From Takakia lepidozioides (Eukaryota; Plantae; Bryophyta): DNA of 64,000 nt. How positions within the stretch are numbered: the stretch's first letter is position 1; each line of letters begins with the position of its first letter. Of the stretch, positions 15,586-44,306 are shown piece by piece. The stretch covers positions 2,914,001 through 2,978,000 of the forward strand of contig CM060731.1 in the NCBI GenBank assembly GCA_030704615.1, given 5' to 3'. The notes below the pieces were generated by a model. The model saw only the letters and a list, made by a program, of their open reading frames with translations. It did not search any database and had not been told where the DNA came from. The translations under genes and the position numbers were made by a program.

Positions 15586-16200
15586 TTGTCCGAGGAGCTC
15601 TATAATTATGAACACAATTCAAATCTGAGCAGGTAGCAGTACTGCATCAAACGTCTCACAGTATTGTCCGAGGTTCCCGCTCTAAGAGGCTATTTATCCC
15701 AGGGGCTCAGTACTGCGATCTCAGAGTCTTGTCCGAGGAATTTCCCACGCTAGGATGCTACCTATCTCAGGGGCTCAGTACTGCGAGCTCAGAGTCTTGT
15801 CCGAGGAATTCCCCACCTAGGATGCTACCTATCTCAGGGGCTCAGTACTGCGATCTCAGAGTCTTGTCCGAGGAATTTCCCGCGCTAGGATGGTATTTAC
15901 CCATTGGCTCAGTACCGCAATCTCCACGTCGTGTCTGAGGAATTCCCCCGCGCTAGCTGGATGCTAGTTATGCAAAGGGTTCAGTAGTACTGCAATCTCC
16001 AAGTCTGGTCCGAAGGTTTCCCGCGCTAGGATGCTATTCATCCCAATGGTACTAGCATGAGATCGATTGACCGAGGAGTTTACTCTAGGTGCTTTTTCAG
16101 AAGGGTTCTATCGTGAGAAGGTCTGTACTGTTCAAAGGGTGTGGCAATCTCCTTAGTCCTGGCGCAAGGAGTTTCCCGCGTTAGGAGTCTATTTAACCCA
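15586..16200. repeat. Degenerate 67-68 bp tandem repeat, about 8 copies
   Basis: Unit ctcagtactgcgatctcagagtcttgtccgaggaatttcccacgctaggatgctacctatctcagggg, with CTCAGTAC starts at 15706, 15774, 15841 and 15908 and decaying copies on both sides. Confidence 0.9.
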
Positions 16201-17777
16201 GGAGCTTGATCCTCGTGAGCATGTCAGTCCAAAGAGTTCAAGTCTTTGATCCTACGATAAATTGGGGGGTGTCACGACCTATAAATGGTTTTATCCCTCT
16301 GGTTTTCCAACAGGAAACCTTCTAAATACTGCTCCACATATCATTATTCTCAAAATGCTTACCCCCATCAAGTCACCAGGAATGAATCAGTATGGATTCA
16401 ATCAACCCAATCAGTTAATGCCATGCACAAATGTTGGGTTCCCACATATGACTTGCATCACATACTCTTATACACATCTGGCAACTGCTGATATGAAGTT
16501 GTCTGCATTTGCAAGAATTAATCAGGATCTCAGTACCTATTGAAAGTGTCATTTACTAGGGGTTTCCTACAGGATTAAAATTGTTTCTCATATTACGACA
16601 TATATGCGGGTTAGGAAACAATTTCCCCATAGCCTATCGAACCAAATATTATTGCTTATGCTAGTGCCAAGTGCAAATGCTTGACTGGACTGTGGATTGA
16701 AGGAGGACAATGCAAGTTGGATACCAACGTCACCACTAAGATATCAATCATGGAGACCATGGGTACCACTCCATTCGGACACCACAAGACTAGGCGAGAA
16801 GCTGTGGCAAGTTGGCCATTCCAGGCTGGATCAAGTTTTTATGCTGAGCAATTTACAACCAAAGCATTTTGCACAGTCAGGCAGTGGTGACTTTTCAGAT
16901 GCTTTCCAGAGACTACATAGCATGCAAACTTGTGGAATTTCTTTCAGAAGCCAGTAGTGGACAACAACCATTGGTAACTGTTTTCCAAACACCCAGAAAG
17001 GTCCGGTTGCCCCACCAAGTCCGGTTAGTGGACTAAAAGATAGCAAGTGTCTTGACTAAGAAATAGCCTCTTCAACAGGTAAAAAAGGGCCCACAGAACA
17101 ATAAGTTTGACACTCACAAGATCCAAGCCTGGCAAGGTGTGATACTTTAAACACTATTCATGATCGGTGTTTGTTAGACATGAGCCTTGCCTCTCTTTGA
17201 CATCACACTCGTTGAGCCAAAAAGGTCTTAGAAAACCCATGCAACAAAATTAGCCAGAGAAAGTCTCTCCAAACCAGATACTGGTTTTCAATCCAATTAC
17301 ATTAAAAGTTTGATCGAGACTACACCTCAGTTGAGAAATACATCTTCTATTTGAATTGGAGTGACCGGATATGACTCCACAATCACACCAAATCAGAAAT
17401 TGTTAGTACAAACAGCACGATGAGACAGTTGGAACAGATGGACCAAAAATTCCAGTAGGACTTCAAGAATCCATGATCCCAGAAGCTTTTGAAACCATGT
17501 AAAGTTTGATCATCTGGACACAGACCTCATACTTCTGAATGACCTAAAAATACAACAGCACCCCCACCCCAATATTTCGAGGTCATTTCCAGGGTTGCAG
17601 CCTCCGAAATGCCTGCGTGAATCGGAGAGTGCTTGTTGCAACACAGCAGCATCATAGTAACAGCTGACAATCATATGGCATCCAAGCAAGCAGTCACAAA
17701 ACCCTAAATTCATGTTCTCTAAAGCATGCATCTGCCTGCAACCACATTGACGAATTTAAATGGAGAAGCTTAACTCA

Positions 17778-18280
17778 AAGGCAAAACCCAGGACCTGAAG
17801 TGACATGCAACATAGAACCACTACATGGAAGCTTCCCACCCCACGGTCACGAGACAGTTACACATACCCATGCTTGCATTCACAGGATCAAAAACACCTA
17901 ACACATGCTTACAGATGACAGCACAACAAAAAGACAACAAGACAATGACTAACTATTATGAGAAGGCAAAACCCATGACGTAACCTGACATGCAACAAGG
18001 GACCACCACACAGAAAATGCCCAATAGACAGCTAGACACACCCATGCTTGCATTGTACAGGTTCAAGAAACACCTAACACATGCTTAAGTATGACAGCAA
18101 AACACAAAGACAACAAGACTGGCTAACTATTAAAAGGCAAAACCCAGGACCTAACCTGACATGCAACATAGAACCACCAAACAGAAGCTCTCCAAACCCA
18201 TGGTCAATAGACAGCTGAACACTCCCATGCTTGCATTCACAGGTTCCAAAAACACCTAACACATGCTTACGAATGACAGC
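17778..18280. repeat. Three tandem copies of a ~170-185 bp unit downstream of RAN
   Basis: aaggcaaaaccca..acctg..tgacatgcaaca...cccatgcttgcatt...aacacctaacacatgctta recurs at about 17778, 17962 and 18133. Confidence 0.85.
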
Positions 18281-18477
18281 ATCCAATCATCACACTGTTG
18301 GAGAAGAACTTGTGCCAACAATGCGAAACAAAAAGGACCTACCCCATCCTCAGCCAGCCAACCAGCATAGGTTGGAATTATCAGGGGCACAATTATAAGT
18401 ATCTCATTAACTATGGCTCCCCTATATGCACGGATCAAACTTAAGCAAGGGACGACATGGCAAACAATCTAAAAGAC

Positions 18478-24245: not shown

Positions 24246-27200
24246 ATGTGGCGTTACAGAGAGGCCAGATACTGGGCCCACTTTGGTACCCTTGGGTAAT
24301 TGATAAGGTGATAGGAGCTGACCTTCTCGCCCGTCAGGTCTCGTAGCAGGGAAGAAGGGCTGAAGGAACTCGTCATGCTCTAATTGGCCAATGCTCCAAG
24401 TGTGTGGAAATCAGACCAGTTGCAGATCACATAGATTACTCAACTGCACGATTTTTGGAGGAACAAATGACCTACAGATACGGCACACAAAAGGTCACAT
24501 CAACAGATCAAGGCTGAGAGTGGATTAAGTGTGAGTTTCGGAGATATATGAGCGATTCAGGAGGAAACAAGAGCAGTCGTCCCCATACTGGTCACAGAGC
24601 AACGGACGGATTGGATGCGTGATCAATCATTGAAATCAAGCATCAAAGTAATCAGTGGAAGAAAGGGTGGAGAGTGTAACAGAGACCTCAAGCATGGTCT
24701 GGCAATCGAGTTGAAGTGCAGGCTGCCACCAATCTCCCTCCATGCGAGCTGGAACTTACAGGAAACGACCTGAGAGTCAGCAATGATAAGTACATGGGAC
24801 GGATAACTGAACAAATGCAGCTGAGGGATGACGAAGCGGCAACGCGGTCCATCATGGAGAAGAAGCCGATTGGAGTTTAACAAATCGAGCTGCTCCATGG
24901 TAATGGCGAGGCGACCCCAAAACAGCATAGAACTACTTGTTCGGAACCCGTAGATAACCTGGGAACAGTTTTTAATGGTGAGAACGTTTTGGTGTTAAAA
25001 AATAAAAAATAAAAAAAAGCCTTTTTGATCCAATTTAAATGTTTAAAGAGCCTGGTTGGTCATATCTTTGTCAAATGGGCTCTGTTTGACTCAGTTTTTG
25101 AGGGCATAGCTGCAGAAAGGGGAAATCTACCTATCTCGACCTGGTTTTAATTTTTGGGACTCTGCTAAAAATCTATGGAATTTTTAGAGTGTGAGTGTGC
25201 CGTGAAAGACCCACAATTCTATTTCTAGAACCTGTTCTGGTCTATATGAGAGACAAATCTGTGGATGTCCTCCTTGTATGGCTAGGGGAAATGAGGACGT
25301 AATTGAAGGGCAGGTCTCTTCTCTTAGACTGTGCACACAAGGGGACATGATTTATGCTTCCCAAGGAACTCAGACTGATTTGAGTGGAGAACAGTTGGAC
25401 GAGTTGATTGCATACTGGGAGTCAGGCATTAGCAGTAGACAACAAACTGCTGTAGTTGGCGTTGAGGGCCTCAATATCGCTTTGGACAGTCAGAACTCTG
25501 TTGGAGCCAGCAGTTCTGCAGCTGTAGGTGAAATACCAAAGTGGGTGAAAGCTAGGCTTGGAACACAACCAAAGACAGCCCCGGGTACCAAGGTGTTCAG
25601 CCACAAGGCCGTGGTGTAATGGAGCAGAGGAGCAGGAGCTACACAAGTTTGTGCAATCAGACATGGTTGCAGCCGGACACGCTCTGCACAAGGCAATCAC
25701 GAGCGGGGGTTCATTAGCAATGACAAATTTGTTTTGCTTGAAGGGGATGCAGTCATCCGCAATGAGGACACCCGCAATCGTCTCAAAGCTTTCGAGTTGA
25801 GAGACTATCAGACCCTACCTTTGTTTTCTTTAGTGTTCAGTGAGCGGGAGATAGGGGAGTATTGCTTTGTCTCTACCTGGCAAAAAGAGGAGGAGGGTTG
25901 GTTAGAGCGAACTACTGTAGCTTGGGACAAGGTTAGTGGCAGGTTTCTGGACATAGATATACCGCCTACACCTTACCATCATGAAGAGCGAGGCACTTTG
26001 AGAGAAGTCTGGCAGTTGATAGCATAGATCAGGATTAGATCTTGCTTGGTCGGGCTTCTATTCTTCTCCTCCATCTCTGTACTATTTTCATTATCTTGTA
26101 CTTGTAGTTGCCAAAGCCTCTCTTGGTGGAGGCCAGTCAGTCCGGGGTTTTGGGCTGGGATATTCTGCAGGATCAGCATTGCAGATGGATTTTGGTGTGG
26201 GGGTGTTGATGTTTTGATTTCTTGTGTTTGGATCCTCCCCAACACCTGCATGCTTGACTGTGCGCCATGTTGGTTTTGTGTGGGCGCTTGCTTTCATAGG
26301 GATTAGGCCGGATTTGATCACCGGTCAATCCTAGAGTATGCTGTCGGTGGTGAGGCTGGAGTGATGACCAGCAAGACCACCAGTGTCTCTTCTATGGTGA
26401 GACTGGGTTGATGACCAGCCAACCATAGGAGTTCTTGCGGTGGATGCAGGTGCAGGTGCCCTGAGCCACTGGGATATGACCCTTAAATTGCAACATGTAC
26501 CTACCCGTGTCACTTTTAGAATTAGTATTAGAGCCTTATAGTGTCACGAGACGAGGTGTTCGTTTCAGACCACCTTCACCTCCACCCTCAACTAGTGCAG
26601 AGTCAGACACAGACTCGGAGGCTTCATCAATAGGTGTGCAGTTTCATTCGCCAGTGTTGTGGGACGACATGGAGGAGATGTATGGAGCTACCAAGGGGCC
26701 TCGTAGGTACTCTGGAGCTGTGGGCACAATTGAGTTGGATGACTTTATCCAGGAATTCGACAGCTGGTGTGATTTGCAACAGATGCGCAATCCACAGCTA
26801 TTCACCCCATTCATGGCGTGGAATAAACTGTTCCAGCATTTGGAAGGCCCGCCTATTGACGATTACCACGAGTTCAGGCGAGGACATGAAGCAGAGATTG
26901 AGGAGTGGAGGATGTATTGGTCACCTGACTACGTCTCCATTACTCGAGGCACGACGCGACCAGTAGCTGCATCAGTACCAATATCTCCCACTGCCAGCAC
27001 TAGTAGTGGAACAAGTAGTGCTGGTACTTCTGAAGGTGGTACCAGTTCAAAAGGTGCTACTACTCCTCCTGCCACGACTACAACACATGTGCCTAGATTC
27101 AACCCGGTGGTGGAGTTCTTCCAGGAGTTGCGGAGGAACTACCAAGGTGTACGGACAGAAAAGCTGCGAAGTTTGCAAGACTTCCAGCGCAAACCCAATG

Positions 27201-28540
27201 AGAGCCTGCGAGAGGCGTACACTCGTATGAGGCGCTTGATAAGTGTGACCCAAGGGGTTACTGAAGCTCAGGCAATCCAGTTCTGGTATGGAATTTTGGA
27301 CAAAGAGCTCAAGAGAAAGGTGCGGGATACAACCCTGTTACAAGCAGCCCAACCCACATTAGCAAATGTGTTTCTGCTGGCTGAGCGGATTGAGCTCAAC
27401 ATAGTGGAGGAGCGAGTTGTTACCCTTGGATTTGGCAAAGACATGCCTGCACGAGGCGCAGCTGCCAGCCCACAGGCACAAGGGACTGCCCAACAGCGTG
27501 GTCAGGGGGGCAAGGTTTCCAAACCCAAGCTCCATGGAGCTTACTGGGGACCTCAGGTGCAGAGGCCCGTGGCATCTTTTGCAGGCCAACAGCAACCAGG
27601 GGTGATATGTTGGACATGTGGAGGACCCCATGTCAAGAGAGATTGCCCAGAGAGTGGCAAAAGGCCGGCACAAGCACAGCCTGCACAGTTGCAGTGTGGG
27701 CATTGTGGCAAGTATGGGCATGGAGATGCCCAGTGTTATGACTTGCATCCTGAGTTGCGCCCAGGCCAGTTCCAAGGGAACAATGGTGGCCGGGGGCGAG
27801 GTGGACCAGCCCAGAGAGGACGAGGTGGTCGGGCACGAGGTGCAGGCCAAAGGCAAGCTCAACATGGCCAAGGACGCGAAGGTCAGGGTGTTGACCAAGG
27901 CATGGCCAACCGGCTTCAGCAACTAGAGCAAAGGCTCGCTGCCATGGCTACAGCTCAGGCGGTACCGGCTCCCAGGCGGGATGGTCCACCTCCTGCGCCT
28001 GAGGGAGGAGATATGGGAGGCATAGGATTCATGTGCGGAGCAGCACTACCACTAGTGCAGGTGGAGTCTGCTGCAGCCGTGACTCGAGGAGCAGCATGAG
28101 TTCCTGAGCCATGAGGTGCAGAGGTGGAATTGGATCCACAGCGTGGGGAGGCAAGCCGTCAGGCGAGGCTTCCTCAGTCATTCACATTGGCGGAGAATGT
28201 GTCGACGCCATCCATGGCACCTAGTTCTCGCCCGACTGTTACCGAGGCGGAGGTTACTATGCCATTGGGGAGAGCTACACGTGCAGCACTGACACCTGCT
28301 ACCAAGGCTAGTGCAGCCGGTGTGTTATTGGGGGCAGCCACCTCTTTGTGTCAAGCCCCACTTTTCTCGGCAACCATGATTGCGACGCCGGGGGTAAGAC
28401 CAGCTGCAGTGTTAAGACTAGCAGCAACACTCTGTGAGAGTGGGGAGGTCACTTCATCTTCTGCGGAGTTAGTGGAAGGTGTAGTGTCAGGGGGATCCTC
28501 GGATTTGAGGGTCAAGACTGCCACGGCTGCGCCCTGGCAA
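24244..28540 (+). mobile_element. Ty3/gypsy LTR retrotransposon, 5' part only (putative LTR ~24244-24967, extra ORF, gag)
   Basis: A TG start falls where SAD homology ends, and ...GGGAACA followed by TTTTTAATGG at about 24967 resembles an LTR/PBS junction. A gag ORF follows. LTR limits are inferred because no second LTR is visible. Confidence 0.55.
26495..28540 (+). pseudogene. gag: Retrotransposon gag with capsid-like region and two CCHC zinc knuckles; interrupted before the protease
   Basis: LRSLQDFQRKPNESLREAYTRMRRL (gag major-homology-like region), CWTCGGPHVKRDC and CGHCGKYGHGDAQC, then AVTRG. Two in-frame TGA stops at about 28097-28114; the frame continues to 28540, where unrelated sequence begins. 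Confidence 0.85.
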
Positions 28541-31500
28541 CACTAGAAGCATTCGTGTCATTTACCACTTGGGTAACGACTCATTTTGAGTCGTGAAAGT
28601 CAAAAAACTGGGATGACTGGAAGTTACAACAGACTAGTTACAACAGACGTGGTAGTTGGGTTGGGACCTCCATGATTGGAATGTAAAGGACGCAGATGTG
28701 CGAACAACTGCTCAGCGATTAATGCGATTAATGCTGAAGAACCACGTGGCGTAACCAGGCGGCCGCCGTGTGTCTGACCTTTTGGGCTGACTTTGACTTT
28801 TCCCTCCGGTTGAGTGGACCACTAACTGAAGCGCGTGACACATGACGCGGACGTGGACGACGATGTGGATGCCGACGTGGCGGCGCCACGACGAGCACCA
28901 CTGCTGCCACACGTGGCCACGGGCCGCGGGCGCCACGTGGTATAGACCACATAACTTGCGTGCTACATGCCTAGTGGCACTTGCGACTGCGGAAGTTGCG
29001 CAACCACTGCTTTAACTACTTTACATGAGTGCTCAAAGTACTTGAACAATCATTCATAGTGATTCATGCTTTGGAGTTTTGGTGTTTGTAGTGAGTCGCT
29101 AGTAATGCCATACCGAGAACTAATCATGCATTAGAAAGCACAAACGATGAAAGACATGCCATGAACAAAATGAAATGAAAATGAATGAAATGAAACAAAA
29201 TGGTACTTTATTACATCTGCGGAAAGCTCAAAGAGCTTATGGACAAAATGAAAACACAAAGTAACAAAAGCAGCCCAAAAGCTACTGCTGCTCTGGGGTT
29301 GGCCTAAGGGTCAGGCCTCGTGCAATTCAAGCAGTTCTAATCCTCATAATGCAAGACTTCAGTGAGTTCCACGGAGTCTTCGTTTGAAGTGCATGGATGC
29401 CTCGGCGTGAGCCTGTTCACGTGAGCGCGTGAGCGCGTGAGCGCGACTGCGCTCACGCCACGTCACTTGCGCAAATGCCACGTCACGGGTCCTCAGTCAC
29501 GTCATCACACTTGGAGGCCGAGTCACACGCACCCAGAAAGAAAGGAGTGTATTCCCGCGGATTGGCACCCTTTATCCCCGCGGAAACAAGCTGGACGACA
29601 TAATAAAAGGCATGAATAAATAAAACAATGATGATGATGTACAGTTGGATGATAAACAGATGGATGAGTTGAAAAATCTATGTAGATGGATGAATGACGG
29701 ATGGATAAGAGTAAAATGGATGAATGTATAATGGATGTTGAGCAATGACAAAAATTCATGACAGGAAGATGCATGACCAAATCTTTTGACGAATGCACAA
29801 AGTATATGAAATGAGTGTGGAAGGTTTTGTGGGTGGATTAAAGAGTACAGAGGATGAATGTACAATGGATGTTGTACAAAGGAAGCTTTCATGAATGGAG
29901 CACGCATAATACAGTGTAGATGAATGCACAATGGATATGAGAAGAGTCAGGAAGGTTTGTGAGATGGATTCATACATATAGCAATTTAAACGAAAGTTGA
30001 TTCTGTGATTATTATTTGTTCTAAAGGAACAACTACGGTAGAGTAAGGGGATTCAACGTTTCCAGATAATATGAAAATGAATATTAAAAGAATACAGTTC
30101 AGTCTGACTCAGAGTCAGTACAATGTATCCCCTCTTCCTCTGCATCTAAGTCTAAGTATTTTAGAACACCGGATCCACGCGGAATACACCTACGGCTGGC
30201 CACTAAAAGTCAGGGGATAGGGACTCGGACCGCGTGAAGTGCCATTGCTTCGCATAAACAGGGAGAGAAAATTGGAAAGGGGCTGTCGAAAACAGACTCG
30301 CCAGAAATGACTGTATCTCCTGAAATCCACCGCTGGCTTTCCTGAAAAGACAGCCTGAAAAAGTTATTACTGTAACTTTGATGTTATCGAGAAATTGAGT
30401 ATGACTCCCAAAGAGGGTTTAGCACTTACTCACATAAAAGTCGTTGTCGACCTGCTTATCTTCGGGATCGTCATCATTTCGAATATGAATCCGATCAGTC
30501 TGTTGTGCCTGAAGTGGAGCCAGACAAAAGGGGGAGGAGCACTGTGTTGTAGAGGTCAGAATCACCCTCCATACCAAAAAGGCTTCTTCCGCCTGCCTTG
30601 CATGCGTGGTAAGTTGCTCCTGCACCAGACAAGAGAACATAAACAGTTTTGGAGGAGGGGATTTAAGCAGATGAAACTGTTGAAAGGAACCATTCGGAAG
30701 GGAGAAAACGAACCTGTGGACACAGAAAGATCGACAACCCGTGCAGAGCGGTGGGCTGCATGACTCCAGCAGTATTTGCATGAATGCTGGTGACTTTTCC
30801 TTTGCACCTCTCCAGGGAGTGCCATCTGGTCCTCTCAGAGTCTGACTGGACTGCATGAAGTTGTACAAAATGTCATCGACATGGGGCTCATAGGGGGGTT
30901 CACGAAACAACCCTGGTCAAAATCTCAAAGCTGCGGATGGAGGATGGTGTCTTTGATGGCGAATCCTCCAGGCAGATCGCCTCGAACATCCTCGTCTGCC
31001 AAAGATAGCAGGTTAGTGTGGTAAACACAATCTAAAGTGGAAGTGTGTACATCGGCTATTCAGAACTCTGACACCAAAAAACCATGAATCATTGATGATC
31101 GGTGTCGATCATAAAACATTCTACTAGAGTGGAGCTGCAGAGAAAATTGAAACTCATGATCAAAGCATAAGCAGAAGGCAGACGGCATACCAGCTGACCA
31201 GGGAACCGCCTTCACAAGGTAGAGGCTGTTTCACACAATTCCATGTGCGCAAAACTTCAAACCCTGAAGACTTGAGGTATGATGCCAATGCCCGACGACT
31301 ATCATTGTCACATGACTGAAAAAGCAGAAGTGTCCCTGCATCAGAGAGGAAATTGTTACAGACCCGAATACCCAAACTCCAGTAGTTGTCCTCGAATTTG
31401 TTCCACCCTGCGTCTTGCCCTTTGGAAGAACTTCTGGCACAGCTGGCCACCGGGATGTCGAGAATGACAATGTCGGCCGCATAAGTTTTCTGCACACCGC

Positions 31501-32421
31501 ACACGAAGGTGGGACCTGTGCTCACCTGCAACACATGTTTTTTATAAGAACGATGGCAAATGTTTTCAAAGAACGAGACTGAAATACTGCCAACGAAACA
31601 TTTCAGAGAAAAAAGAAAGAAATGGAATTCTCACCAGATTGAGGAATGAGATTATATTGTCCCAGGTAGGGATGGCACCCCAGTGTATCCTCTCTTTCGA
31701 CTCTGCATCATCGAAAGCCAACCCTCATTAACAATTTTCATCTCTCCTGCTGAATCAGAACGGGAAGGTGTGGTTTGGCATCGAACACGCCTGAAAAGTG
31801 CGGGTATATCTTCCAGCAGTAAAGTCCTGCCCACTCTCCATCTCCTTTTCATTCTCCTTCCCCTTGTCCTTTTCCTTCTCTTTGGACTTGTCTTTGTCCT
31901 TGGCTTTGCTGGTGAGATGGCTATGACATCAACAGCCTTGTCTTTTGGTTTGCGGCCCGCCTTCTTTCCCTCTGCGGCGTTCCCTGAGCATCAGGCTCCT
32001 TGGCAGCCAAGGTTGCTATGTTTCGTTGATACTCTTCGTCAGTCAAAGGCGCCAGCATCTCAGCGTTATTGTTCAAGTATTTCATATGCTGTTCTTGAAA
32101 GGTCGTGTGCTCAGGTGGGCAGTCAAGGTACCACCCACAGTCTCTGAAGTGAGAAGGACTCCAGTCCTTCAATATCCTGCAGTATACATGGTTGGATCGT
32201 TTGCAGGGTCCGACCACATGTCAAGATAGTCGGGAATTCCGCTCAGGTGATTTCCTTCCATAAGCACATATTTCGTGTACCTGAAAAAAGGAGATGAATC
32301 CCAACCCACAAAGCGCTCAGTGAGTAAGATGCAAGTAGAACAGAAAGAAATAAAACATGGATTGAAATGGCTCTGACAACTGCTCCAAGGACCTTTCAGG
32401 ACCACACTACTGCTCCAGATA

Positions 32422-33137
32422 TGAATGTCGTCAACGCCATTCAGAACATTCCATTCCATGACACTGTAAATACATCCTAATCCAGGTGAATGCAAATAAG
32501 CGATTAGAAATGACACAGACATAGAAGTGAATGTCGTCAACGACATTCAAGAATGAGCCAAATTATTACTGAAATGAAGCAAAATCACAGGATGGAAATA
32601 AAAAAATTGAGTAAGGAACCATCCAGGAAAACTCAATGCACATTCATAACGAACCTATCACTGAGGACCTCACAACATCACTGTATGTGAATGGCGTCAA
32701 CGCCATTCACAAAAATACAAAAAAGAAACCAATTACTTAGCTCCCCAATCCATGAATATGAATTTGTCGTTTTTTATAATACAGACACAGCTGTGAATGC
32801 GTTAACGACATTCACTTTGGATTTCTTAAAACAGAGCTTATGAAGCCTCCATATTCATCGCAAGAGGAAAAACAATGCAGAACAACTGAATGTCTGCATT
32901 GACATTCAGCAAAATGAAGTGATCAACCCTCATTGTATCCCTATGGACATTACAAAAATTTAAATAACTGAGGACCGCACAAACAACTCCGTATGTGAAT
33001 GTCGTCAACGCCATTCAAGGACATTATCAATTCTAATCAGGGACAATATAATTGCACCCTTAGATCCAACCAGGTGAATTCATATACTCGCTTAAGAATG
33101 ACTCAGACAAAGAAGTGAATGTCGTCAACGACATTCA
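32422..33137. repeat. Seven copies of the 22-bp palindrome TGAATGTCGT-CA-ACGACATTCA in an intron
   Basis: Copies start at 32422, 32528, 32688, 32794 (21 nt), 32887, 32996 and 33116. Those at 32528 and 33116 have perfect 10-bp arms. Confidence 0.93.
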
Positions 33138-35008
33138 ATCTGGATCTAAGATTGCAATCCATATGAAGCCACAATTTTTCCCAAAAAAACAGTAGAGTTT
33201 CAAGTATGACATTTCACCTGTACACAACTCGCATCATGCCCACTCTCCTCCAACCTGACTGTCAAAGTCGTTGGACCGTAAAATGTTACCATCTTTGGAG
33301 AACTCCCGGAAAAAACAGTATCTCCAGGTGAGACCTCTCCACTTCCTTATGTATGCCCTCCAATGACATTTGGGGAGGGGAAACAATCGCAATGTTCAGG
33401 TCCTTCAAAGTCTGATCCAGCACAATGACGGCGCGCTTTTCGAGCTGCAAATAGAATATTTTTCAGAATTGCAAAAAAAAACACATCACATACTTGAAGA
33501 TAAGAAACAGCATGTTCGAATACACACCTGACTCCAAAATGTAGCCTTGTGGAGCCAGTTATCAAACACCAAATCACTGATTCCTTCCACCTTTGTGCCA
33601 GGCTGTATGGTGCTCTTTGGGAACTGATTCAAGTCCTTTACTGTTTGATCTGAGTTCCATATCTCCAGCCACCTTATTTTTGTTTGTGGGTCGACCATCG
33701 ATATGGCCAGCCGGTGCAATTTCTCCTGCTGCATCTCCGGATGCACATGCTTGTCATAGTGTGTTTTGATCTGCTGAAGGAACTCAGGACCAAGTCCAGG
33801 ATCTACTATTCTAAGCTGCTTTCCGAAGGCTGACATCAATTTGGTTCTTCGCATCTCAAACTCCTTCTTTATTGCAGCTTCCACACCCTTTGATGTCCTT
33901 AGTTCCTCTGGTGTAGTGCGGTAATATTCGGATTTTCCCTTCTCAGCTGCCTCTGCCAGTTCTTGCTGCATTCATTCAAGTAGTGATTAGCTCCGAAGGG
34001 ACTCTAAACATGTATTCGAAAAGTAAACAGATTACAGACTCGGGCTTACCGCATACATGTACTCCAGAAACGCCTCTCGTGTCAAAGAATACCAAGTGCC
34101 TGCAGCTCTTCCTGTTTCGCACTTCTTGATGATATTGGGTGGTAGTACTGTCCGAAAATCATCCAGCTTCATCAGACCAATCCTCTGAATTCGGAATAGT
34201 GTGTGAACCAAGCTTGTTGTCACATGCGATTTCTCTGTCGATCTGCAAAAACATTGAAAACATTGCATTCCTTAACACTGTTTTTTGAGGATCAACAAGA
34301 CACTACACAGGGAATCAAATCTCCTGGATGACTTACTTGTTCACGTCGTGCATAGCTGTAAGAAGCCTAGCGATGTCGTTTCCTGGATCCAAAACCATTG
34401 CCTCCACAGCAACATGCTTGTCTTTGTCTTTCGAATGGTGTTTCTGAATGTATCCCATCCATGCCAGCAATCGGTGGTTGCCGTCCCAGACGTAGAACAT
34501 GTGGTTGCAAAATTGCTGGGTGTTCTTTCCCATCATGAGGCCCAGCTCGAACTCCTCATTGGCATCTTTCCAGCACTCATCCCAGTTATCACTGATCTCT
34601 GGAGAAACTAATGTGCTTTTCCCATTTATATCCGTCAGGGACACATAAAAAACTTGTGCACCAAGTCTATATCCATGCACAAAATCACTCTCCAATTTTG
34701 TTATGTCATGGGAAAGAGGTGGACGCACAACAGGCATTGATATCATCCGGCACAGAGGTATGTCCAGACGCCCTCCAGATACGAGCATGTCCCTTATAAC
34801 CTCCTGAGAGTTTACCTTCTGGAATGACATGAGTTCTTTCACCTTGTCAAGGTAGTGCACTTCGGATTCATCTGCTTCATCTGTATTCTCTGAGCTTTTT
34901 GCGGACTCGTCCCCATCTCCAGATCCTTTCCCCTCTGATCCTGTAGGCTTCGACCTCACAGTTTTCTGCACGATGCCATTCAGTTCTGACTAAGTCATTT
35001 GCAAATAG

Positions 35009-35327
35009 TGAATGGCGGTAACGACAATCACTCTGTATCAAGGAAACTCACCATGAATGGTGTGAAAGAATTCAGCACAATCTACACATGCAAAGCCGAG
35101 ACTGCCGTATTCAAAACAAAAGTGAGAGCGATAGCGAACGGCGTTAACGACAATCACAAAAGATAACAACCTGCCGGATCGGTGTTGTGAAATGACATAT
35201 ATGTGCAACTGATTGGCGGCAACGACATTCAGTATAGTTTAGGGAGAATAGTAAGTGCAGACTCTCTCTTCAAACACATAGGTACATAAATCTCATGAGC
35301 AGAATCGAATGGCGTTAACGACGCTCG
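35009..35327. repeat. Four more degenerate copies of the same palindrome in the first intron
   Basis: TGAATGGCGGTAACGACAATCA (35009), CGAACGGCGTTAACGACAATCA (35135), TGATTGGCGGCAACGACATTCA (35210), CGAATGGCGTTAACGACGCTCG (35306). Confidence 0.85.
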
Positions 35328-36560
35328 CGATTCAGTAGTTCCTGCTAAAGAATGGAAGAGGAAGGACTCCTTGAAAGGCAATCACATAGACTATATGATA
35401 AAACTTACTGGCACCTTCTTAGGTTTTGAACTTTGATCCCCTTCTGCAGCTTTCCTCTTCCCTCTCACATCTGCTGGAGTTTCTGTCTGCGCAAGGGTTT
35501 CTTGACCTTCTTCAGGTTCGGCGTTCCGCGTGCTTCCACCTTCTTCAGTGTCCCTGCGATTCATCTCTGCCTCCACAGGCTGGCGCACTCTTATCGCCGA
35601 CTGTGTCGCAGCCGCTGCCTCAGTCTCCGTCTGCTCTTGTGAATCAGTCTCCGCGTTCACCTGCTGCCTTGGCCCTGTGTTCTCCAACAAACGACGCCTC
35701 GTCATTTTCTCTCTTGCTCTGCGTCTCTCTCTAAGGGAAGTAAAATAAAGAGACTTTCTTCTCTTTCGTATTCTAGAAGGAACCCTCTCCAGCTTGACTA
35801 CCACTCTCCCTCTAAGCGCGAAAAGTAGAAAAACGCAGTGACTCCCGATTTCTTGCGGGATAACCTGTGTTCTTGCGTGTCTCTAGAAGCATCGGATTCC
35901 CTCCCGCGTGACCGTTACACATAGTCGTTTCGATATTAGTGCACATGCCAGCAATTGGTGTACAGCTGTTCGTATTCAGTTATGGATGTCTGACGTGTGC
36001 CGCCCAAAACAAAACGGCGTGTTCTAAATTATAACTGGTTCAATATTTAAAAAGAACAGCGAATCCCAGAAATTGATGCGCAGTCTTAAACAAATAAATA
36101 TAAATGAACGAGAGTTTGATGACAAATTTTGGAATATCATACACGGTCATCCTTGTTATCCAAACCCCACATTCGTTGCACATTTGGAACTTTCCAGGTG
36201 CGCATGATCATTGGTAGTAGTATATAGATACATTTACTTAATCTGCAATCCCATTCTCGGATCCTGTGGCATGCTTCCAGGAAGTCGGCTTTGTTATTGG
36301 GTTTATTGATGAGGTTCTGATTAACGGTTTAACAGTTGCCGACACTGCCCCTATGGATTCTCTGACCACTGGGCCCACAAGAAAAGTAATTAAAATGGAC
36401 GGCTGCATATCTGGAATGAATAACAGAATATGCACAGTCGTTATCTGAGCTTCCTCCGCCATATGCTCTGCTCATTCTTCAACTGTGTTCTGGAGACAGC
36501 AGTAAACCGATTTACACTAGATCTGCGATAGCAAGGTACAAACATACTCGAGGAAGGAAG

Positions 36561-39500
36561 ATGGCTTCCTCTGAAGCGGAGTTCTTCTCAGACGACAAAC
36601 CAGTGCCGTTCTCCCAGGAAGTCCTTGACAATGGATTTGCAATTGTTCTGGAACATGTCTTGGCTACCCGTTTTCAGCTGCAGAATGGCTCCATCTTTTT
36701 GGAGAAAGAGGTTTACGATCTGAAAGGGAAGTTGGTGAAATATTCTTTCCAAAACCGTGATGAGACGGCTCATATCAGCCAGTGGAGAGTGCGTCCTGGT
36801 CGATACAGAGTACTTGGAGAGCCTCGGCGAAAGTCCCTTGGGTCATATGTGACGCCCGGGACTGCTGCTTCGGTCGTTGAAGACAAGAGGGAGGTGGTGG
36901 TGAAAAAAGAACAGACTCCTCCACTCCAATCGTTGAGCTTTCGGATTCTTCCGATGATGACATAAGTGAAATTCCAAATCCAGTCCTTCCTACTGTGGTT
37001 GCAGAAGCTGATGAAGAAGAGATTTGTAGTGTCATTCCAAAATTGCGGGCGATGGGAGGAATGGCTGGATTCAAAAGCGAGTTGCGGGGAATTGATTGGG
37101 AATCTTTGAAGCAGGTGCCTGTGAAGTTCTTGCGGAGACTTTTGATGGCGATATCCTATTCGAGCTGCCTCCTCCTCCGCGAGTTGGAGGTGTAACAATC
37201 ATGATGCATGGAATGGACAAGAAACACGACGGGCACCCGTGGTGCAGAACAAAAACATCCAATATTCAGAATGATGACAAGCTTGTTTTCAGGAGGACAG
37301 TTTGCAATGGACACCTTAGGTGTGATAATTTGAATTGCAGACACTTTCTTCAGTCTGGAGTTCATAATCAAAGCGAATGGGAGGGTCTGGCGGAGAATCC
37401 ATTTCAGCCTGGGACTGCCCCTCCACCGGCAAACACTTTCGTCTGCAAATTCTGCAAACTTGTGCCATCCTGCTTGGCGCTCTGCGGAGCAAGAATGTAC
37501 TATGTTGTCCACCGTTTGAATACAATGACGAGAGCTTGTGTGCATTTTGGATTCCATAACCATCCTGTCTCGAAGGGGGATTACAGGGAGAGTGTTGAGA
37601 CAGTATCGAGGTTGATCAAACAGGAGTTCGGGAGAAACCCATCCGCAACAACATCTGCAATTGCTCTTGGCGCAAGCAAGTCCTTCTTGGAAAGCCATAT
37701 TTTGAGTGAAGGAGATTCTGTGGGGACTAAACTTGACGGTGCAGCATTGGACCTGGTCATGGATCATTTCTCCACTTTAAGTTCACCTAACATTCGGCAT
37801 CAGATCAATGCATTGAGAATGGGCTCTGGGATCAGAGGCTACATAGACAATATTTTGGAATTGAAACGACTGAGCAAGTACGATTACATCCAGGACAATG
37901 TATTCCCAGGTCAAGGTGCCATCAAAGTTTTTCTTTTCAAAATGTCGACTGTTGGGGAGGGCAGTGGGGTTAGCCTCGTGAAGCGGATGCAGAAGACTGG
38001 GGACTTGCAGAACTGTTTTCTTATGTTTGATCATGTGAAACGAGTGAAGGATTGGACGACAATGGCTTGTCATGTCTACGATCCAGTGTACCAACGAGTT
38101 ATGACAATTGCAGTTTGTGACATGCAATCCGAGGATACGGAATCCCAGAAGCTCATGTGGAATTCCCTGATACGTGTCATGGGCTGCCATGGGCTGCCAT
38201 CTCCAAATTTCGCAGGTTTCATGGCGGATAGTGCTCAAGCAAATTTCAATGCTATTCGTATTGTCTTCGGATCGGGCGACCCAAAAGTGCCTATGCCAGG
38301 AAGAGAGCGTACATGTCTATTCCATTGGACACAATCTCTGGAAAAACATACAAAGTCGGACATCAAACCAGAGATGCAGACTCAGCACCGTAAATTGTGC
38401 AAAGAGTACAAAGATGCTAGAACAATGAAGGAGGCGGACACTTTGTTCCAGACAATTCGTGCCTGGTGGTTCTCTTCTGGAGCTGCATCACTTGAGAGTA
38501 TGAGAGCATTGGAAGATTGGCTGGCGTTTTGGCACTTCCGGTATAGACAGTGGGGAGCAGCCATGACAATGGTACGAGGCTTCTATTTCATGCTTTATTC
38601 ATACATTTGCTTTCCATATTTTTGTTGCTTTCTTTATGTTGTTTCCTGTGCACTATTCTGAAGTGTGGTTATCCTCTTTGCAGAACATGTCCATTGAGGA
38701 AATGGCAGACATGCCATCTTGCAATTTGGCAGAAACTGTGCACAATGCATGGTTGCAGCAGTCTGGGAAAAGAGGTCGGGATTTGTATGTGGCAACAACA
38801 GATGATTTGATACGTGCCTTGCAACAACAAACCCGATACCGTGATTTCTTACGAGGTGGGGTTGGTGGCAAGGGTCCGGACAAATCGGAGTTGATGTTGC
38901 GTGCTGCAAACAGATCTGGGGATCCAATCAAGATAGCACGGGCGGTGAGCATGTATGCCCAGGGAACGCCACTTGTTTCTAGAGTTCCACATCTTGAAGG
39001 GGAGGAGAGATTCGGCTCCTGTAAGAGGAAATTGAACACTCCACCTGGTTCGGATTCAGATTCCCACAGGGCAGACCGTGATAACTTCTCGAAGCCTCGT
39101 GTTCCCCTGCATGACAGCTCCGTGTCCGGAACCTCCATTGTGGAGGAACCTCCAACACGACGGCAAGCTCCAGCATCAAACCGTGCCACTGAAATGGTGC
39201 AGGAGAGAAACAACCCCCTTGATGTGCTTGAGTCCGCATGCCCCGACCACGTTTGGCACATAGAACGCACAAGTGTCGGGTCTCGTGTGAAATGTACAGC
39301 GATCAGGGCAACTAATTTCGAGAAGTGCACTTCATCTATATCCAGAGGTGGTGCCCGAACTCCTGCTCCGACTTTCACGGGCTTGATGCGTCCATACGGT
39401 CAACCAGAAGCCAAGAACCACAAGTTCTGGTTCTGCGCAGATGATTGTGCCAGATGTGTGCATGGAACTGTGCGTCCTTCCGTAGTGATGAAGCCATCTC

Positions 39501-40068
39501 CTCCAACCGTTTGGCCCGTGAAGGTGGGAACACATCTCAGCTTTCAGGAGATTGAAATGCTGGAGGAGGCAGGTTTTTCCCTTGCGAGACAACCCCAACT
39601 CCATGCATGTGCTACTACTCCTGCGTCCTCCCGGGTCCCCCCGGCAAATCCTGACTTGTGGCCAACCAAACGAGATGGAAAGCTCGTTCGGCGTTTCCTC
39701 CAACCGCTGAACACTTTGGCAAAGTGGAGTCCGCAAGAATGCTCCAAGCTCGTGTTGGAAGCACCACGGAAGTACCCGATCCAGGATATGGTCGGGTATT
39801 CACAATCATCACTTCCACATCTGCTGTTCATGACAGGACCTACGACATCACGGTTTCCAATTTCCCCAATTGCACATGTCCTGATTTTGTGAATATGCTA
39901 TCAACCAGTTTGGGCAAGAGAGGTAAATTCATACCCTGCAAACATTTGTATTTCATATTTTTGAGGAGGATGGTTTGCGATCCCAAACGTGACAACTTCA
40001 TTCACCAGGCCACTATGAGTTTCAACGAGGTCGATACTCTTTTGCAGCGGGATACAACACATGGGTAG
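36561..40068 (+). pseudogene. Mutator-family DDE transposase with an N-terminal GCM-like zinc finger and a C-terminal SWIM finger; three frameshifts and one intron
   Basis: GCM-like region HPWCRTKTSN...TVCNGHLRCDNLNC...CKFC...CGAR...HFGFHNHP. Catalytic-like LMFDHVKR, GFMADSAQANFNAI, the MULE CxxH motif CLFHW, and SCNLAETVHNAW. SWIM region YDITVSNFPNCTCPDF...PCKHLYFI. GT-AG intron at about 38572-38683; frameshifts near 36925, 37130 and 39697. Confidence 0.85.
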
Positions 40069-43000
40069 CATGAACTATGTAATGTGGTATGTGGATGACC
40101 ATGATTTGAAATGTGTAATTCACATCAATTCGTCGGCTGTGCAATGATATGGCCTCCAACTATACGGAGTGAGGTCTGAGTGACAACTTTTAGGTAGTGC
40201 ACATTTGTCATTGCACCGTTCGAAGTCTACATGTCTTGCTGTCGCTATGCACTACAATCATCTTTTGAAGATGATCATAACTCTCATTGTTATTTGAGGA
40301 GGGAGGAAGTCTTCTCGTGGCAGCCTTTATGGCGCACACTTTGTGAGGATATTTTGTCGTCTTCGTAATTGTAAAAGTGAAACAAACATTTGTAATTGCA
40401 CAATGTTGGATGCTGCAATTGTAGGCCTCAACGCTCGTCTTGATTCTATTTAGGCAAGATTCCCTGCATTAATTCCACGGTCATAGGACCATCCACGGTT
40501 ATAGGCGGCGCATGTTAATGCTGACGTGGCAGTTGACGGACAGTGCCACGTCATCATTTACCGCCACATCAGCATGCTGACATGACGCTCACGCCACGTC
40601 AGCATGTGTGCAGGCTCACGCCACGTCAGCTGGCGTGAGCGTACGCTCACGCCACGTCACTCCTGCGTGAGCGTACGCTCGCGCGCTCACGTGCAACGCT
40701 CACGCCATTGCGTCGTTGGTTTGAAGTGTAAGGGCGTCACGAGTTTCACTTTTTCTGAACTGAGAGAATGTATGGTAGGGCTGAACGTTACGATGCTTGG
40801 TGTTTAGAAAAGACTAGTCCATCATGGCATGTGCGGGGTGCGCATTGAAAGAAGTCAATGGATAGTGAGAGAGAACCTTTCGGTTCAGAATCTTTCAAGG
40901 TGTACAGAGTATCTAAACTAGCGATGGCTAGAAGTACAATTCATAGGTCCTCGTTGATATGACACTAAGATTATTGTGTACATAAGTCAGCAAAGGTAGG
41001 GTGTCGATTTGTACTAGAAAGCAGTGTGGAGTGCTTAGTTTATCAGTATGGTATGAAGTCGAGCTGAACTGATCCATAGTTTCAGACGTAGGTTGACGAT
41101 ATGATCTGATCGTAGAAGGTATAGGAAGCTGAACGCCCTCTTGCATGAATCTGAACCCACATTCCATCCCTGCTCCTTCAGCTATGAACCTGCCAAGAGA
41201 GTGCATGCCAATTGTCCTTCTGAACTCTGCCCCAGTGGACATGTATTGTCGCGCACCTCACTTCGGTAAGCTCCCCTTCAAGTCATAGTTACTCGCTTTG
41301 ATGCATGCGCCTAACTCCCAAACTGGCCGCCGGGCCAACTCGGAGCTTCGGCTGCTCACCAAGACATAACGGTCCCTCTTTGCTCCTCCAGAAATTCCCT
41401 TTGGTTGTTGGCAGTCCGGAACAGCTCCCCACACCTTGGTCGCTTTCCGGCTCGCACGCTTACTCACTAGTTTTTGGTCACCAACGGGCTTGCACCGTTC
41501 TCGGCGTTACTACTCCCTATATATACTTCTGTGACTATCCACGGGGGTCTCACAAACAACCCAGTCATTTCATGGCAAACCACCACGAAGACCCTCGATT
41601 CCCGGTGATGAGTCGCGGTGCGTCTTGGCCCACCCACCACGGCCCCATTGGACCGTGATGAGTCCCCAAGACTCCCCACGACTCCCACCACAAGGTCTCC
41701 GCCCCATGGTGAGTCCTATGTCACCCCCACTAAGACCCACTAAGGTACCACCACCCCTCGTGGACCCACCCCCACCGCAACCCGGTGTGCGGGGCTCCAC
41801 CTAGTGAGCGCCTCCGCCTCCTTGAGTGCCTTGGGCACTCAAGGGTGCTTCAGCCTCCGTACCTATGCCATTGCCCCCACCACAGGGGCAGCCCCTCTTG
41901 TGTCCCGACCCCCTGCCCTCATGGCAAAGGGTCGCGACACACACCCCCACCAACAGGGAGTCGATGTCCTCATCGACTTGTCCATTTTGTAGAAACTAAC
42001 ATCCAAGTTGTGGTGTCCAACATCAAGGAGTTTGTTTCCGTACCATGGCATCCCATGGCAAAGAACCAAACCCCCACTTGACTCTACTCTCCACTAGCTA
42101 GTTTGGCCAACTTCCTCCAAGTCCCGGCCAAGGGTGGAGCCTCTCAAGCTCCACCAAGTGCACTCTTCCTTGGGAACGATCCTCCCCGAGGATCGCATCG
42201 CCTTGCTCCAAAAACATTGCTTGCGACCACTCATGATGCCACTTTTGGCATCACCTTGAGCAAGGGTTCACCTTGAACCCTTTTTTACTAGGAAGATAAC
42301 CTTGAACCAACCGCGCGCCCCAATCACTATAATTGGGTCCGCCTGGGAATGCTGGCCTGAGATACGGGAACACGCCGAAGCTGCACTACGACTTTGTCCC
42401 AAGGTTACACGATTATAGTACGTGAACGGAAGCACGTAACTTCCGCGTTAATCCGCACTACAAGACAACCCCTCGGTAGCGCAGTTATAGTACGCGCACG
42501 TGCCAGGTGCGCACTAGCACGTGAACTCCCAAAGAAAATGCGAGTTTCCTTGCCCCTTGGATGGGAGTCATCCGATTTCGGCACTGCGCAAACTCACGAT
42601 TAATCCAATTTACCTCTCCCACTTTTGTAAGCTAGCATGCATTCTACACACTAGCCAACACTATAGGAAAAAGAGGGCCTTTGCGACGCCGCGGCCACAC
42701 CGCAGCGTGGGAAAACGCCCTTTTCGGGCACGCGGCAAGTGCAGAATTTGCGACGCCCGGCCGTCACCAGGCAGTCGCATGGGCGTCGCCAAAATGACGT
42801 CGCAAAAATGCGACGTATAGGGGTCGCGAGCCCCCGCCCCAACTCCCCCGACTGCCGGACGTCGCTTTTCAGGCTGTCCGCGCCGATGGCAGGGGCCTCC
42901 GTCGAGCGACGTCTCGCCGTCGCGGACCTCCAGCCGACGGCGTTGGTGGGGGCGCCGGTGCGGCATCGCATCCATTTTTTTTTCTAACCTGCCCAGGAGT

Positions 43001-43182
43001 CCCATCCTAAAATCCAAAAACACGTGGCGTAAGCCGGGTGGTACGCCAAGCGACGCCAGTGCGTCGCTACAAACGACTATTGGGTGTGGCAAAAAAAAAC
43101 AGCAGGAGCAGGAGTCGGACTCCGCCACACCCGGGCGTGGGTTTTCGCGATGCTCTGGCGTTGTTTTGTTTTAAATTTAATC

Positions 43183-43214
<32 letters not shown>

Positions 43215-44306
43215 GTGGCGCAGGCAAGGTGGCGGGCTCCGCGACGTCACGGCGTCGCGGCTTGCGACCCCTGGACCAAAAAAACACGTCGCAAGGGGTT
43301 TCGGGCGTTGCCGCCCGCAAATGGGTTTTGCGACGCCCGACCGTCGCGGCTTGCGACCCCCTCCCAAAAAGCACATCGCCACTGGCGACGTCTTGCAGTC
43401 GCGAGGGCAGCCTGGTGGGGGGGGGGGTCGGGGGTTGATTTTGGGGATGAATTGGGGTGGTTTTTTGTTTTTTGCCTGGTTCTGTTTTTGGGGATGGGGG
43501 ACCTTACAGTTCCATTCTCTGATTTAGCAGGTACACAATTGAGCAAGCATGAATCGAGGGTGAGGACGGTGCGACACATGAATAAGATGGAAGATGGAAA
43601 GATGGAAATATATTTACAGGAAATGAGCTGAAAAGCTCACAAGGGTTCAGTAGGCTGACCCTGGGACCTACATGGACTAGGACTAGTCATCCTCATCCTC
43701 ATTCTCAGTGGAGGACTCAGAGCTATCCGATGAGCCTGATGACTCCGCGCCCCTTTGCCAGAGCACCTAAATGAGGCGGCGTTCCCCTAAGTCCCACAGA
43801 GCTCTCATCCAATCCCTGGCCATGACCCCCGACCTCATCCATACTAGTGCCCTGTAGTGCACTCATCCCCTCCGTGTTGGCCATGTTCTTCATGAGGGAT
43901 TACCAACCATGCTCCTTGGCGTAGTTGTACTCTACCGGAGATGGCTTCCTCGCAAACGCGCGTTGCTACACATGCCACAAATTAAAGTCAGTTCTTCACG
44001 ATGATGGAGCCAAAAAGAAGACATAACAAAATCCATAGGGAAGTACGACTTACAAATCGCAAGATAAAACCCTTGGATCCGTCGGCGCCCCACTTGTGTG
44101 TGGATTCGTGCTTGTCAAGGCGGACTGTTGTTGCTTCGCGTGCCCGGTCAAATTTGGCCTTGTTTGCGGCATTAGTCTCTCCCGCAATGAGTGCATCCCA
44201 CGATACCTATGCCCCCCCCCCCCCCCAACAATTAGTGAATTACACACATACGTTGCATCGAATCCACCTCATTAATGTACATGCGACAAATGGAAGGTGA
44301 CAAGAT

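What the first reader, a model, noticed from the sequence alone, without database searches (positions are those of the whole stretch)
30495..31530. MTase-like domain has non-canonical motifs (DIP instead of DPPY/SPPY; DLSVSTG instead of DPFxGSG)
Seen: the beta-class order is preserved (motif IV ADIVILDIP, then FLSDAGTLLLF, FEAICL, EKSPAFMQILLESCS, motif I VVDLSVSTGAT, and GRSLFGME), and introns interrupt the domain. Known: bacterial-type amino-MTases have been recruited in eukaryotes, for example bdelloid N4CMT and Marchantia DN4MT1. Inference: the introns imply an old acquisition, and the protein is either a divergent enzyme or a catalytically dead DNA binder. Residues right after DIP are uncertain because compensating 1-nt indels are possible there.
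Basis: partly seen in the sequence, partly recalled or inferred. Interest (0 to 1): 0.75.

Follow-up and report, generated by a model that had tools for sequence, protein, structure and literature searches.

The report
Plant transposon's eroded ParB-methyltransferase cargo
This is the tail of a spliced passenger gene in a plant jumping gene that joins a ParB-type domain to a bacterial-style DNA methyltransferase domain whose two key motifs are truly eroded, so the protein likely binds the element's own palindromes and likely no longer methylates DNA; similar passengers are already reported from seaweed transposons.

Summary
The motifs are at the stated places, in beta-class order, split by GT-AG introns. 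They are not assembly errors: contigs from two other studies keep DIP and DLSVST. Those contigs fix the next residue: motif IV reads DIPD, not DIPV. The window has 8 one-base indels against 1 substitution in 361 bases, most likely assembly noise. The domain is the C-terminal part of a 10-exon, about 1,150-aa gene whose N-terminus has a ParB fold. It lies head-to-head with a MULE-like SWIM transposase in an element of about 11 kb. All 11 copies of a 22-bp palindrome in the window lie in this gene's two long introns. Profile alignment puts DIPD on (D/S)PP(Y/F) and DLSVSTG on DPFxGSG; the base-stacking aromatic and the motif I Phe and first Gly are lost. Best reading: a transposon accessory protein that likely binds its own palindromes, with a likely dead methyltransferase domain in this lineage. 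The right comparison is the Ectocarpus Sola1-1 ParB-methyltransferase cargo, not host enzymes N4CMT or DN4MT1. This scan has already noted the same kind of gene in several other plant genomes and once elsewhere in this one. Activity is untested.

The parts
30434..31489 (-). Beta-class amino-methyltransferase-like domain, three exons (31489-31191, 30995-30714, 30619-30434); the window copy is frameshifted at several places
31451..31459 (-). Motif IV position: DIP in the window, DIPD in contigs of runs X1 and X2
30714..30732 (-). Motif I position, DLSVST(G); the Gly codon is split by intron 30713-30620; no substitution listed in DLSVST for X1 or X2 (table of differences was cut)
30567..30590 (-). 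GRSLFGME: motif II region, acidic residue kept
34337..34989 (-). ParB/sulfiredoxin-fold exon (P0001) with conserved VR and GNHRxxA
30095..35705 (-). Whole cargo gene, 10 exons, about 1,150 codons. ATG 35705 and the last exon (30341-30095) are inferred from splice signals only. Exons: 35705-35409, 34989-34337, 34242-34050, 33965-33528, 33444-33218, 32280-31635, 31489-31191, 30995-30714, 30619-30434, 30341-30095
   Evidence: spliced joints
32422..33137 (.). Seven copies (two degenerate) of a 22-bp palindrome, in the 935-bp intron
35009..35327 (.). Four copies of the same palindrome, in the inferred first intron (419 bp)
36561..40066 (+). MULE-like transposase, head-to-head with the cargo gene; frameshifted in the window; one intron near 38574-38677; C-terminal SWIM-like CxC...CxH near 39870-39945
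29404..29435 (.). Candidate left end: short imperfect inverted repeat of 40676-40706 (87.5% over 32 columns); target-site duplication not found
40676..40706 (.). Candidate right end of the element

Best explanation
The domain is the C-terminal part of a spliced ParB-plus-methyltransferase-fold passenger gene of a likely Mutator-type plant DNA transposon, whose protein likely binds the palindromes in its own introns and, having lost the base-stacking aromatic of motif IV and the Phe and first Gly of motif I, likely no longer methylates DNA in this lineage. Shown: motifs, order, three spliced introns, the DIPD reading, the ParB fold, the head-to-head transposase and the confinement of the palindromes to the gene's introns. 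Inferred: one transcript from the ParB exon to the MTase exons (about 0.9); binding of the palindromes (about 0.65); loss of catalysis (about 0.6); a role in keeping the element from being silenced, as VANC proteins do, by occupying or spreading along its DNA (about 0.4).
For: Motif IV is DIPD in contigs of two studies. The consensus is (D/N/S)PP(Y/F/W), the last residue stacking on the target base, and eroded motifs mark the non-catalytic subunits METTL14 (EPPL) and MTA9 (NALW) (PMC7544214, passages). Control: 62 of 64 bacterial PF01555 domains have (D/S)PP(Y/F), the other 2 are gaps there; 64 of 64 have Gly and 64 of 64 have F/M/T at the two motif I positions where the window has Ser (best-scoring members, so biased to the canonical). 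Fold: a homologue's matching half (P0143, 425-520) overlays PF01555 clusters at TM 0.74-0.80, and the window's half matches P0143 above all 2,000 shuffles. ParB exon: pLDDT 86; the top eight structural matches are ParB/sulfiredoxin-type proteins by their titles and my recall (KorB Z 7.6, rmsd 2.6, 90 aligned; PadC Z 7.3). P0055 and P0143 carry both the ParB and an MTase-like part in one chain. Palindrome: 19 strand-matches against 0.40 expected; 11 of 11 copies in two introns. Precedent: Ectocarpus Sola1-1_Ec32; inverted-repeat arrays beside Bostrychia PAG3.
Against: Asp and the third Pro of motif IV, and the Asp, last Gly, Thr, Arg and motif II acid of the SAM-binding half are all kept, which fits retained SAM binding and perhaps slow catalysis. 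All 4 coding substitutions seen in X2 within the MTase exons are synonymous (3, plus 31406), so the domain looks constrained, though n is tiny; X1 has 5 synonymous of 9. Plant relatives are nearer the canon: DVPF in P0055 and QMYAGCG in P0143. No contig links the ParB exon to the MTase exons. ParB Z-scores under 8 are middling by the tool's own note. No DNA-binding helix-turn-helix was looked for. MULE membership rests on recalled motifs and weak hits.
Confidence: 0.55

Rival explanations
1. Same transposon cargo, but an active, divergent amino-methyltransferase with a DIPD motif that writes 4mC or 6mA on the element near the palindromes; another aromatic side chain would take over base stacking.
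For: The catalytic Asp, the Pro and most SAM-contact positions are kept. Substitutions in X2 are synonymous. The gene is spliced in X1. The Ectocarpus paper predicts activity for its protein. A Trp follows in the conserved PGW, shared with P0055.
Against: None of 62 aligned bacterial members lacks the aromatic. Both motifs are eroded at once. No activity has been shown for any such cargo in the papers I read.
Confidence: 0.25
2. The MTase domain is simply decaying in this sub-family and does nothing; only the ParB half, or nothing, matters.
For: The window copy has many frameshifts. One X1 contig keeps the last intron and has a change at the donor's last exon base. Both motifs are eroded.
Against: The frameshifts in the DIP exon vanish in contigs of two studies, giving an open 101-codon exon. 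The rest of the fold is collinear and well kept. Synonymous changes are in excess.
Confidence: 0.12
3. The domain is an active methyltransferase of something other than DNA amino groups (RNA or protein), or the true catalytic motif is the NPPY-like string that read contigs give near 30905-30893.
For: Amino-MTase folds have moved to RNA and protein substrates. With the differences the target-recognition region reads ...FVNPPYE....
Against: The profile alignment places DIPD, not NPPY, at motif IV and puts the NPPY string in the variable region before motif X. P0143 shows no such string at the matching place. The frame upstream of the string is unresolved.
Confidence: 0.08

Closest known systems
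Ectocarpus Sola1-1_Ec32 accessory gene (PMC12477816; passages, reference entries and supplement rows seen; the FASTA supplements could not be read)
   Same: About 1,100 aa (1,104 there, about 1,150 here); ParB-like plus N4C/N6A methyltransferase domain; opposite strand to the transposase of a large DNA transposon; proposed to bind and modify its own element.
   Different: Here the host is a green plant by gene content, the transposase is MULE-like rather than Sola, both catalytic motifs are eroded, and the palindromes lie inside the gene's introns. Sequence homology to the Ectocarpus protein could not be tested.
Bostrychia Plavaka accessory genes PAG2 and PAG3 (bioRxiv 10.1101/2025.02.11.637652; passages and section 8 read; supplements not seen)
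   Same: Transposon-borne PF01555 methylase (PAG2) and ParB-like protein (PAG3); inverted-repeat arrays beside the ParB gene; cassette also on Mutator elements of Chondrus.
   Different: There ParB is fused to a 2OG oxygenase and the methylase to SET, in two genes; here ParB and methylase are one gene.
VANDAL/VANC of Arabidopsis (PMC5735166; abstract and outline seen)
   Same: A transposon carrying a second protein that recognises repeated motifs in the element's own non-coding DNA; a model for what this works like.
   Different: No ParB or methyltransferase domain is named in the abstract; no homology was tested; anti-silencing is shown there and only inferred here.
Bdelloid N4CMT (PMC10406627, passages) and Marchantia DN4MT1 (bioRxiv 10.1101/2021.02.12.428880, passages)
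   Same: Beta-class bacterial-type amino-methyltransferase fold in a eukaryote.
   Different: Those are active host enzymes with SPPY/TSPPY; this is a multi-copy transposon passenger with ParB and DIPD.
METTL14 and MTA9 pseudo-methyltransferases (PMC7544214, passages)
   Same: Beta-class fold with an eroded motif IV.
   Different: They are partners of an active subunit in host complexes; no active partner is identified here.

Membership tests
Beta-class amino-MTase (PF01555), active enzyme | Motif order IV - target recognition region - X - I - II | tested here: met
   Global hhalign, probability 94.4, collinear blocks
Beta-class amino-MTase (PF01555), active enzyme | Rossmann-type MTase fold | tested here: inconclusive
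   Met for a homologue's C-half (TM 0.74-0.80 to PF01555 clusters); weak for a homologue's N-half (TM 0.55-0.69 to MTase clusters, under the naming bar); the window's single exon gave a model at pLDDT 53 with no informative match; the joined domain was not folded
Beta-class amino-MTase (PF01555), active enzyme | Motif IV (D/N/S)PP(Y/F/W) | tested here: not met
   DIPD in X1 and X2 contigs; control 62 of 64 canonical, 2 gapped
Beta-class amino-MTase (PF01555), active enzyme | Motif I FxGxG | tested here: not met
   DLSVSTG; Phe and first Gly replaced by Ser; control 64 of 64 Gly
Beta-class amino-MTase (PF01555), active enzyme | Acidic residue at the end of strand 2 (motif II) | tested here: met
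   Glu of FGME at the same spacing as D/E in 62 of 64 controls
Beta-class amino-MTase (PF01555), active enzyme | Methyl transfer to N4-C or N6-A | not testable with these tools
   Needs an assay
ParB/sulfiredoxin N-terminal domain | ParB/Srx fold | tested here: met
   pLDDT 86 model; top rows KorB, PadC, Pnob8 ParB-N, Noc, ParB, sulfiredoxin; best Z 7.6, Foldseek E 0.013
ParB/sulfiredoxin N-terminal domain | GxxRxxA nucleotide-binding motif (motif recalled) | tested here: met
   GNHRxxA: G 45, N 48, R 44, A 41 of 48 aligned sequences
ParB/sulfiredoxin N-terminal domain | Helix-turn-helix for parS binding | not tested
   Exons after the ParB exon were not folded
Transposon ParB-MTase accessory genes (Sola1-1_Ec32 type) | ParB-like and amino-MTase-like domains in one gene, opposite strand to a transposase | tested here: met
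   P0055 and P0143 hold both parts; 3 of 9 introns seen spliced
Transposon ParB-MTase accessory genes (Sola1-1_Ec32 type) | Sequence homology to the algal proteins | not testable with these tools
   FASTA supplements unreadable
Mutator/MULE DNA transposons | DDE core with CxxH and C-terminal SWIM finger (motifs recalled) | tested here: inconclusive
   Motifs visible in P0003 and near 39870-39945; IS256 hit E 0.16; SWIM hit E 0.04 in the relative L001, under the cut-off
Mutator/MULE DNA transposons | Terminal inverted repeats with 8-11 bp target-site duplication | tested here: inconclusive
   Only a short imperfect inverted repeat; no duplication seen at those ends (first 40 rows printed)
N4CMT / DN4MT1 host 4mC enzymes | SPPY or TSPPY motif IV in a host gene | tested here: not met
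   DIPD, in a multi-copy element

The most novel reading that the evidence does not exclude
A land-plant Mutator-type transposon uses a bacterial ParB-type nucleotide-switched clamp, loaded at palindromes in its own introns, to carry a methyltransferase-fold domain along its DNA. With DIPD it is either an enzyme with a catalytic motif outside the known consensus that writes 4mC or 6mA, or a pseudo-enzyme that covers cytosines and shields the element from host 5mC silencing.
Probability: 0.25. Interest if true: 0.8.

Novelty: new variant of a known kind. Interest (0 to 1): 0.42.

Why it matters
Transposon-borne ParB-methyltransferases have been predicted in algae, with no test of activity in the passages I read. 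A land-plant member with its candidate sites in its own introns gives a direct test of whether such proteins bind, mark or shield their element. Comparing the DIPD form with near-canonical relatives (DVPF) would show whether the family is splitting into enzymes and pseudo-enzymes. It also shows that frameshifts in repeat copies of this assembly can be sequencing noise and can falsify a catalytic motif.

Tried and rejected
No whole genome is held, so copies could not be counted or aligned, and no dN/dS or tree was made. Three word-indexed protein searches found nothing: the DIP exon against longer proteins, the ParB exon against longer proteins, the MTase region against shorter proteins. The tool calls such blanks weak, and the index-free search did find 542 ParB-exon relatives. 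As a result the family-wide state of the two motifs rests on the window lineage plus two homologues. Pfam, PHROGs and NCBIfam gave no significant hit for the window's pieces; Pfam gave none for the homologues' ParB or MTase parts. PDB sequence searches gave only chance hits: cellobiohydrolase E 0.025, fluorescent proteins, eL24 E 0.007. No relative in viral contigs for the ParB exon, its alignment or the transposase, nor in phages for P0143. The ten loci found with P0002 are chance matches on one short peptide in unrelated proteins and were dropped. The fold of the single DIP exon was too poor to use (pLDDT 53); the absence of MTases in those lists is no evidence. No RNA holder is on record among the runs; X1 is a guess. 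X3 laid nothing on the DIP exon. The cluster look-up could not be made. The read-supported exon does not score better against P0055 than the window's reading (68 against 75, both above all 2,000 shuffles), so the correction rests on the contigs, not on homology. L001 (relative of the transposase, 54%) has no ParB gene or palindrome in the 1.8 kb upstream that it holds. CpG observed/expected is 0.57-0.64 in this element against 0.17 in the gypsy element and 0.38 in the first 12 kb; one element against one, confounded by age, so not used as evidence. bioRxiv 10.64898/2026.08.24.746577 has no mention of ParB or methyltransferase. Rejected readings: motifs as assembly artefact (contigs keep them); host domesticated gene (transposase, multi-copy depth, palindromes); bacterial contamination (spliceosomal introns).

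Full report
Setting. The window is eukaryotic, repeat-rich DNA: kinase-like exons at 4-10 kb (my reading of the motifs), a gag-like frame at 26480-28099 and a gypsy element at 46-52 kb. No whole genome is held. Other notes of this scan call the genome a moss; I did not test that.

The observation. Three GT-AG introns flank or cut the domain. Contigs of run X1, which the tool guesses is RNA, skip 31634-31490 and 31190-30996 and also the 935-bp intron upstream. One X1 contig keeps the last MTase intron. So 3 of the 9 introns of my gene model are seen spliced, and the DIP exon starts at 31489.

Fixing motif IV. Over 31170-31530 the contigs of X2 differ from the window by 1 listed substitution and 8 one-base indels. 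X1, from another study, shows 5 of these indels identically and a sixth at the same place with another length. With them the exon is open for 101 codons, ends in phase with the next exon, and motif IV reads DIPD. DIP and DLSVST carry no listed substitution in either run (the table was cut, but 22 of the 23 differences of the X1 contig over motif I are shown). Eight indels to one substitution is what sequencing noise looks like rather than decay, and X2 matches 948 bases of the transposase with no difference. I infer that the window's frameshifts here are mostly assembly errors. The contigs may come from other copies of the family, so this particular copy is not proven intact.

Is it a methyltransferase fold? 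Pfam, PHROGs and NCBIfam do not see it. Three other lines do. First, among 150 listed relatives of the upstream exon, P0055 and P0143 run on into sequence like the two halves of the domain; each half of the window matches its homologue above all 2,000 shuffles. Second, the Atlas model of P0143 residues 425-520 overlays PF01555 clusters at TM 0.74-0.80; P0055's half gives weaker MTase-type rows under the naming bar. Third, I fetched 65 bacterial loci with PF01555 matches and built a profile from 31 of them (45 passed a motif filter, 31 were distinct and under 330 aa). It ranks the last MTase exon first of 1,675 window frames and scores the read-supported domain above all 1,000 shuffles, though at only 4.8 bits. 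Global profile alignment gives probability 94.4, E 1.7e-8, with DIPD under (S/D)PPY and DLSVSTG under DPFxGSG. A fold of the DIP exon alone was uninformative, and the joined domain was not folded.

How eroded? In 64 bacterial domains aligned to the profile, 62 have (D/S)PP(Y/F) and 2 are gapped; all 64 have Gly and F/M/T at the two motif I positions where the window has Ser (these are best-scoring members, so the control leans canonical). The window keeps the motif I Asp, the last Gly, the Thr, the Arg of GR and the motif II acid at exactly the control's spacing. By PMC7544214 (passages) the fourth residue of motif IV stacks on the target base, the motif I Phe packs on the SAM adenine, and eroded motifs mark METTL14 and MTA9. 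An Asp cannot stack. I therefore put loss of DNA methylation at about 0.6. Against this, the catalytic Asp is kept, all 4 coding substitutions seen in X2 are synonymous, X1 has 5 synonymous of 9, and relatives are nearer the canon (DVPF, QMYAGCG).

The rest of the gene. Splice signals give ten exons and about 1,150 codons from 35705 to 30095; the first and last exons are unverified. The second exon has 542 relatives at E 0.001 or better. Its model (48 sequences, pLDDT 86) matches KorB, PadC, Noc, ParB and sulfiredoxin (best Z 7.6, rmsd 2.6, 90 aligned; Foldseek E 0.013): middling scores, but the top eight rows are one fold family. GNHRxxA is conserved. Of 64 relatives that reach the exon's end, 48 stop within 2 residues of it, which points to a shared, old intron. 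P0007, P0009 and P0059 run on into sequence like the next exon.

The element. Head-to-head, 855 bases from the cargo ATG, lies a transposase (36561-40066) with 54% and 63% relatives in two metagenome contigs. MULE type rests on recalled motifs, an IS256 hit at E 0.16 and a SWIM hit at E 0.04 in the relative. A short imperfect inverted repeat at 29404 and 40706 may mark the ends; no target-site duplication was seen. Several divergent contigs per place show a multi-copy family. A 22-bp palindrome gives 19 strand-matches against 0.40 expected; all 11 copies in 64 kb lie in the cargo gene's two long introns.

Mechanism. Most likely the protein is made from the element, recognises the palindromes as ParB proteins recognise inverted repeats, and occupies the element's DNA; its methyltransferase domain likely binds SAM or DNA without writing a mark in this lineage. 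Protection from silencing is by analogy with VANC (PMC5735166, abstract). Binding, the nucleotide switch and anti-silencing are all inferred.

What is known. PMC12477816 (passages) describes a 1,104-aa ParB-like plus N4C/N6A methyltransferase gene opposite the transposase of Ectocarpus Sola1-1_Ec32 and cites similar proteins in green and red algae. The Bostrychia preprint describes PF01555 and ParB cargo on Plavaka and Mutator elements. PMC4738411 (passages) lists ParB-linked MTases and inactive MTase domains in DIRS1 elements. Nine literature searches (listings only, at most 20 rows each) showed no paper on a land-plant member or a DIPD motif; unreadable FASTA supplements and closed preprint supplements could hold the algal motifs. 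The scan itself has noted this kind of gene in at least six windows of other genomes and one other piece of this genome (unchecked notes).

Verdict. A real feature and a new variant of a known kind: works like the algal ParB-MTase cargo and perhaps like VANC, has a beta-class fold, and fails the motif tests for an active beta-class enzyme. Interest 0.42.

Noticed in passing
window 30905-30893 (minus): With the differences listed for X1 and X2, the variable region of the domain reads ...FVNPPYE..., an NPPY-like string. It aligns to the target-recognition region, not to motif IV, and is not seen in P0143.
   Followed up: partly
window 29900-35400: Many one-base frameshifts in the cargo gene are absent from read-derived contigs, while 37618-38565 matches X2 without a difference: local assembly noise that can mimic a pseudogene.
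   Followed up: partly
window 32422-35327: The nine best palindrome copies each keep two CG dinucleotides around a central GT(C/T)AAC-like core; selection by pattern makes this partly circular.
   Followed up: partly
window 15674-16200: Array of 67-68 bp units, about six copies, function unknown.
   Followed up: no
window 17772-18301: Three units of about 175-185 bp, in the region of the host gene.
   Followed up: no
window 46164-51706: Gypsy-type element with gag, protease, RT, RNase H and integrase; stops between the frames at 49144 and 50329; CpG observed/expected 0.17.
   Followed up: partly
window 26480-28099: 539-codon gag-like frame with two zinc knuckles by eye, directly left of the element.
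   Followed up: partly
window 57440-63067: A 970-bp duplicated unit and an inverted copy about 4-5 kb away, with frames that look like the tail of a LINE-type protein (by eye).
   Followed up: no
window 42460-43400 and 52579-53136: CACTA-like end strings with GCGACG-rich repeats, and a frame resembling an EnSpm-type transposase piece (by eye; no Pfam hit).
   Followed up: no
L001:884-1333: A relative of the transposase has a different 149-aa frame upstream, with no match to the ParB cargo region.
   Followed up: partly
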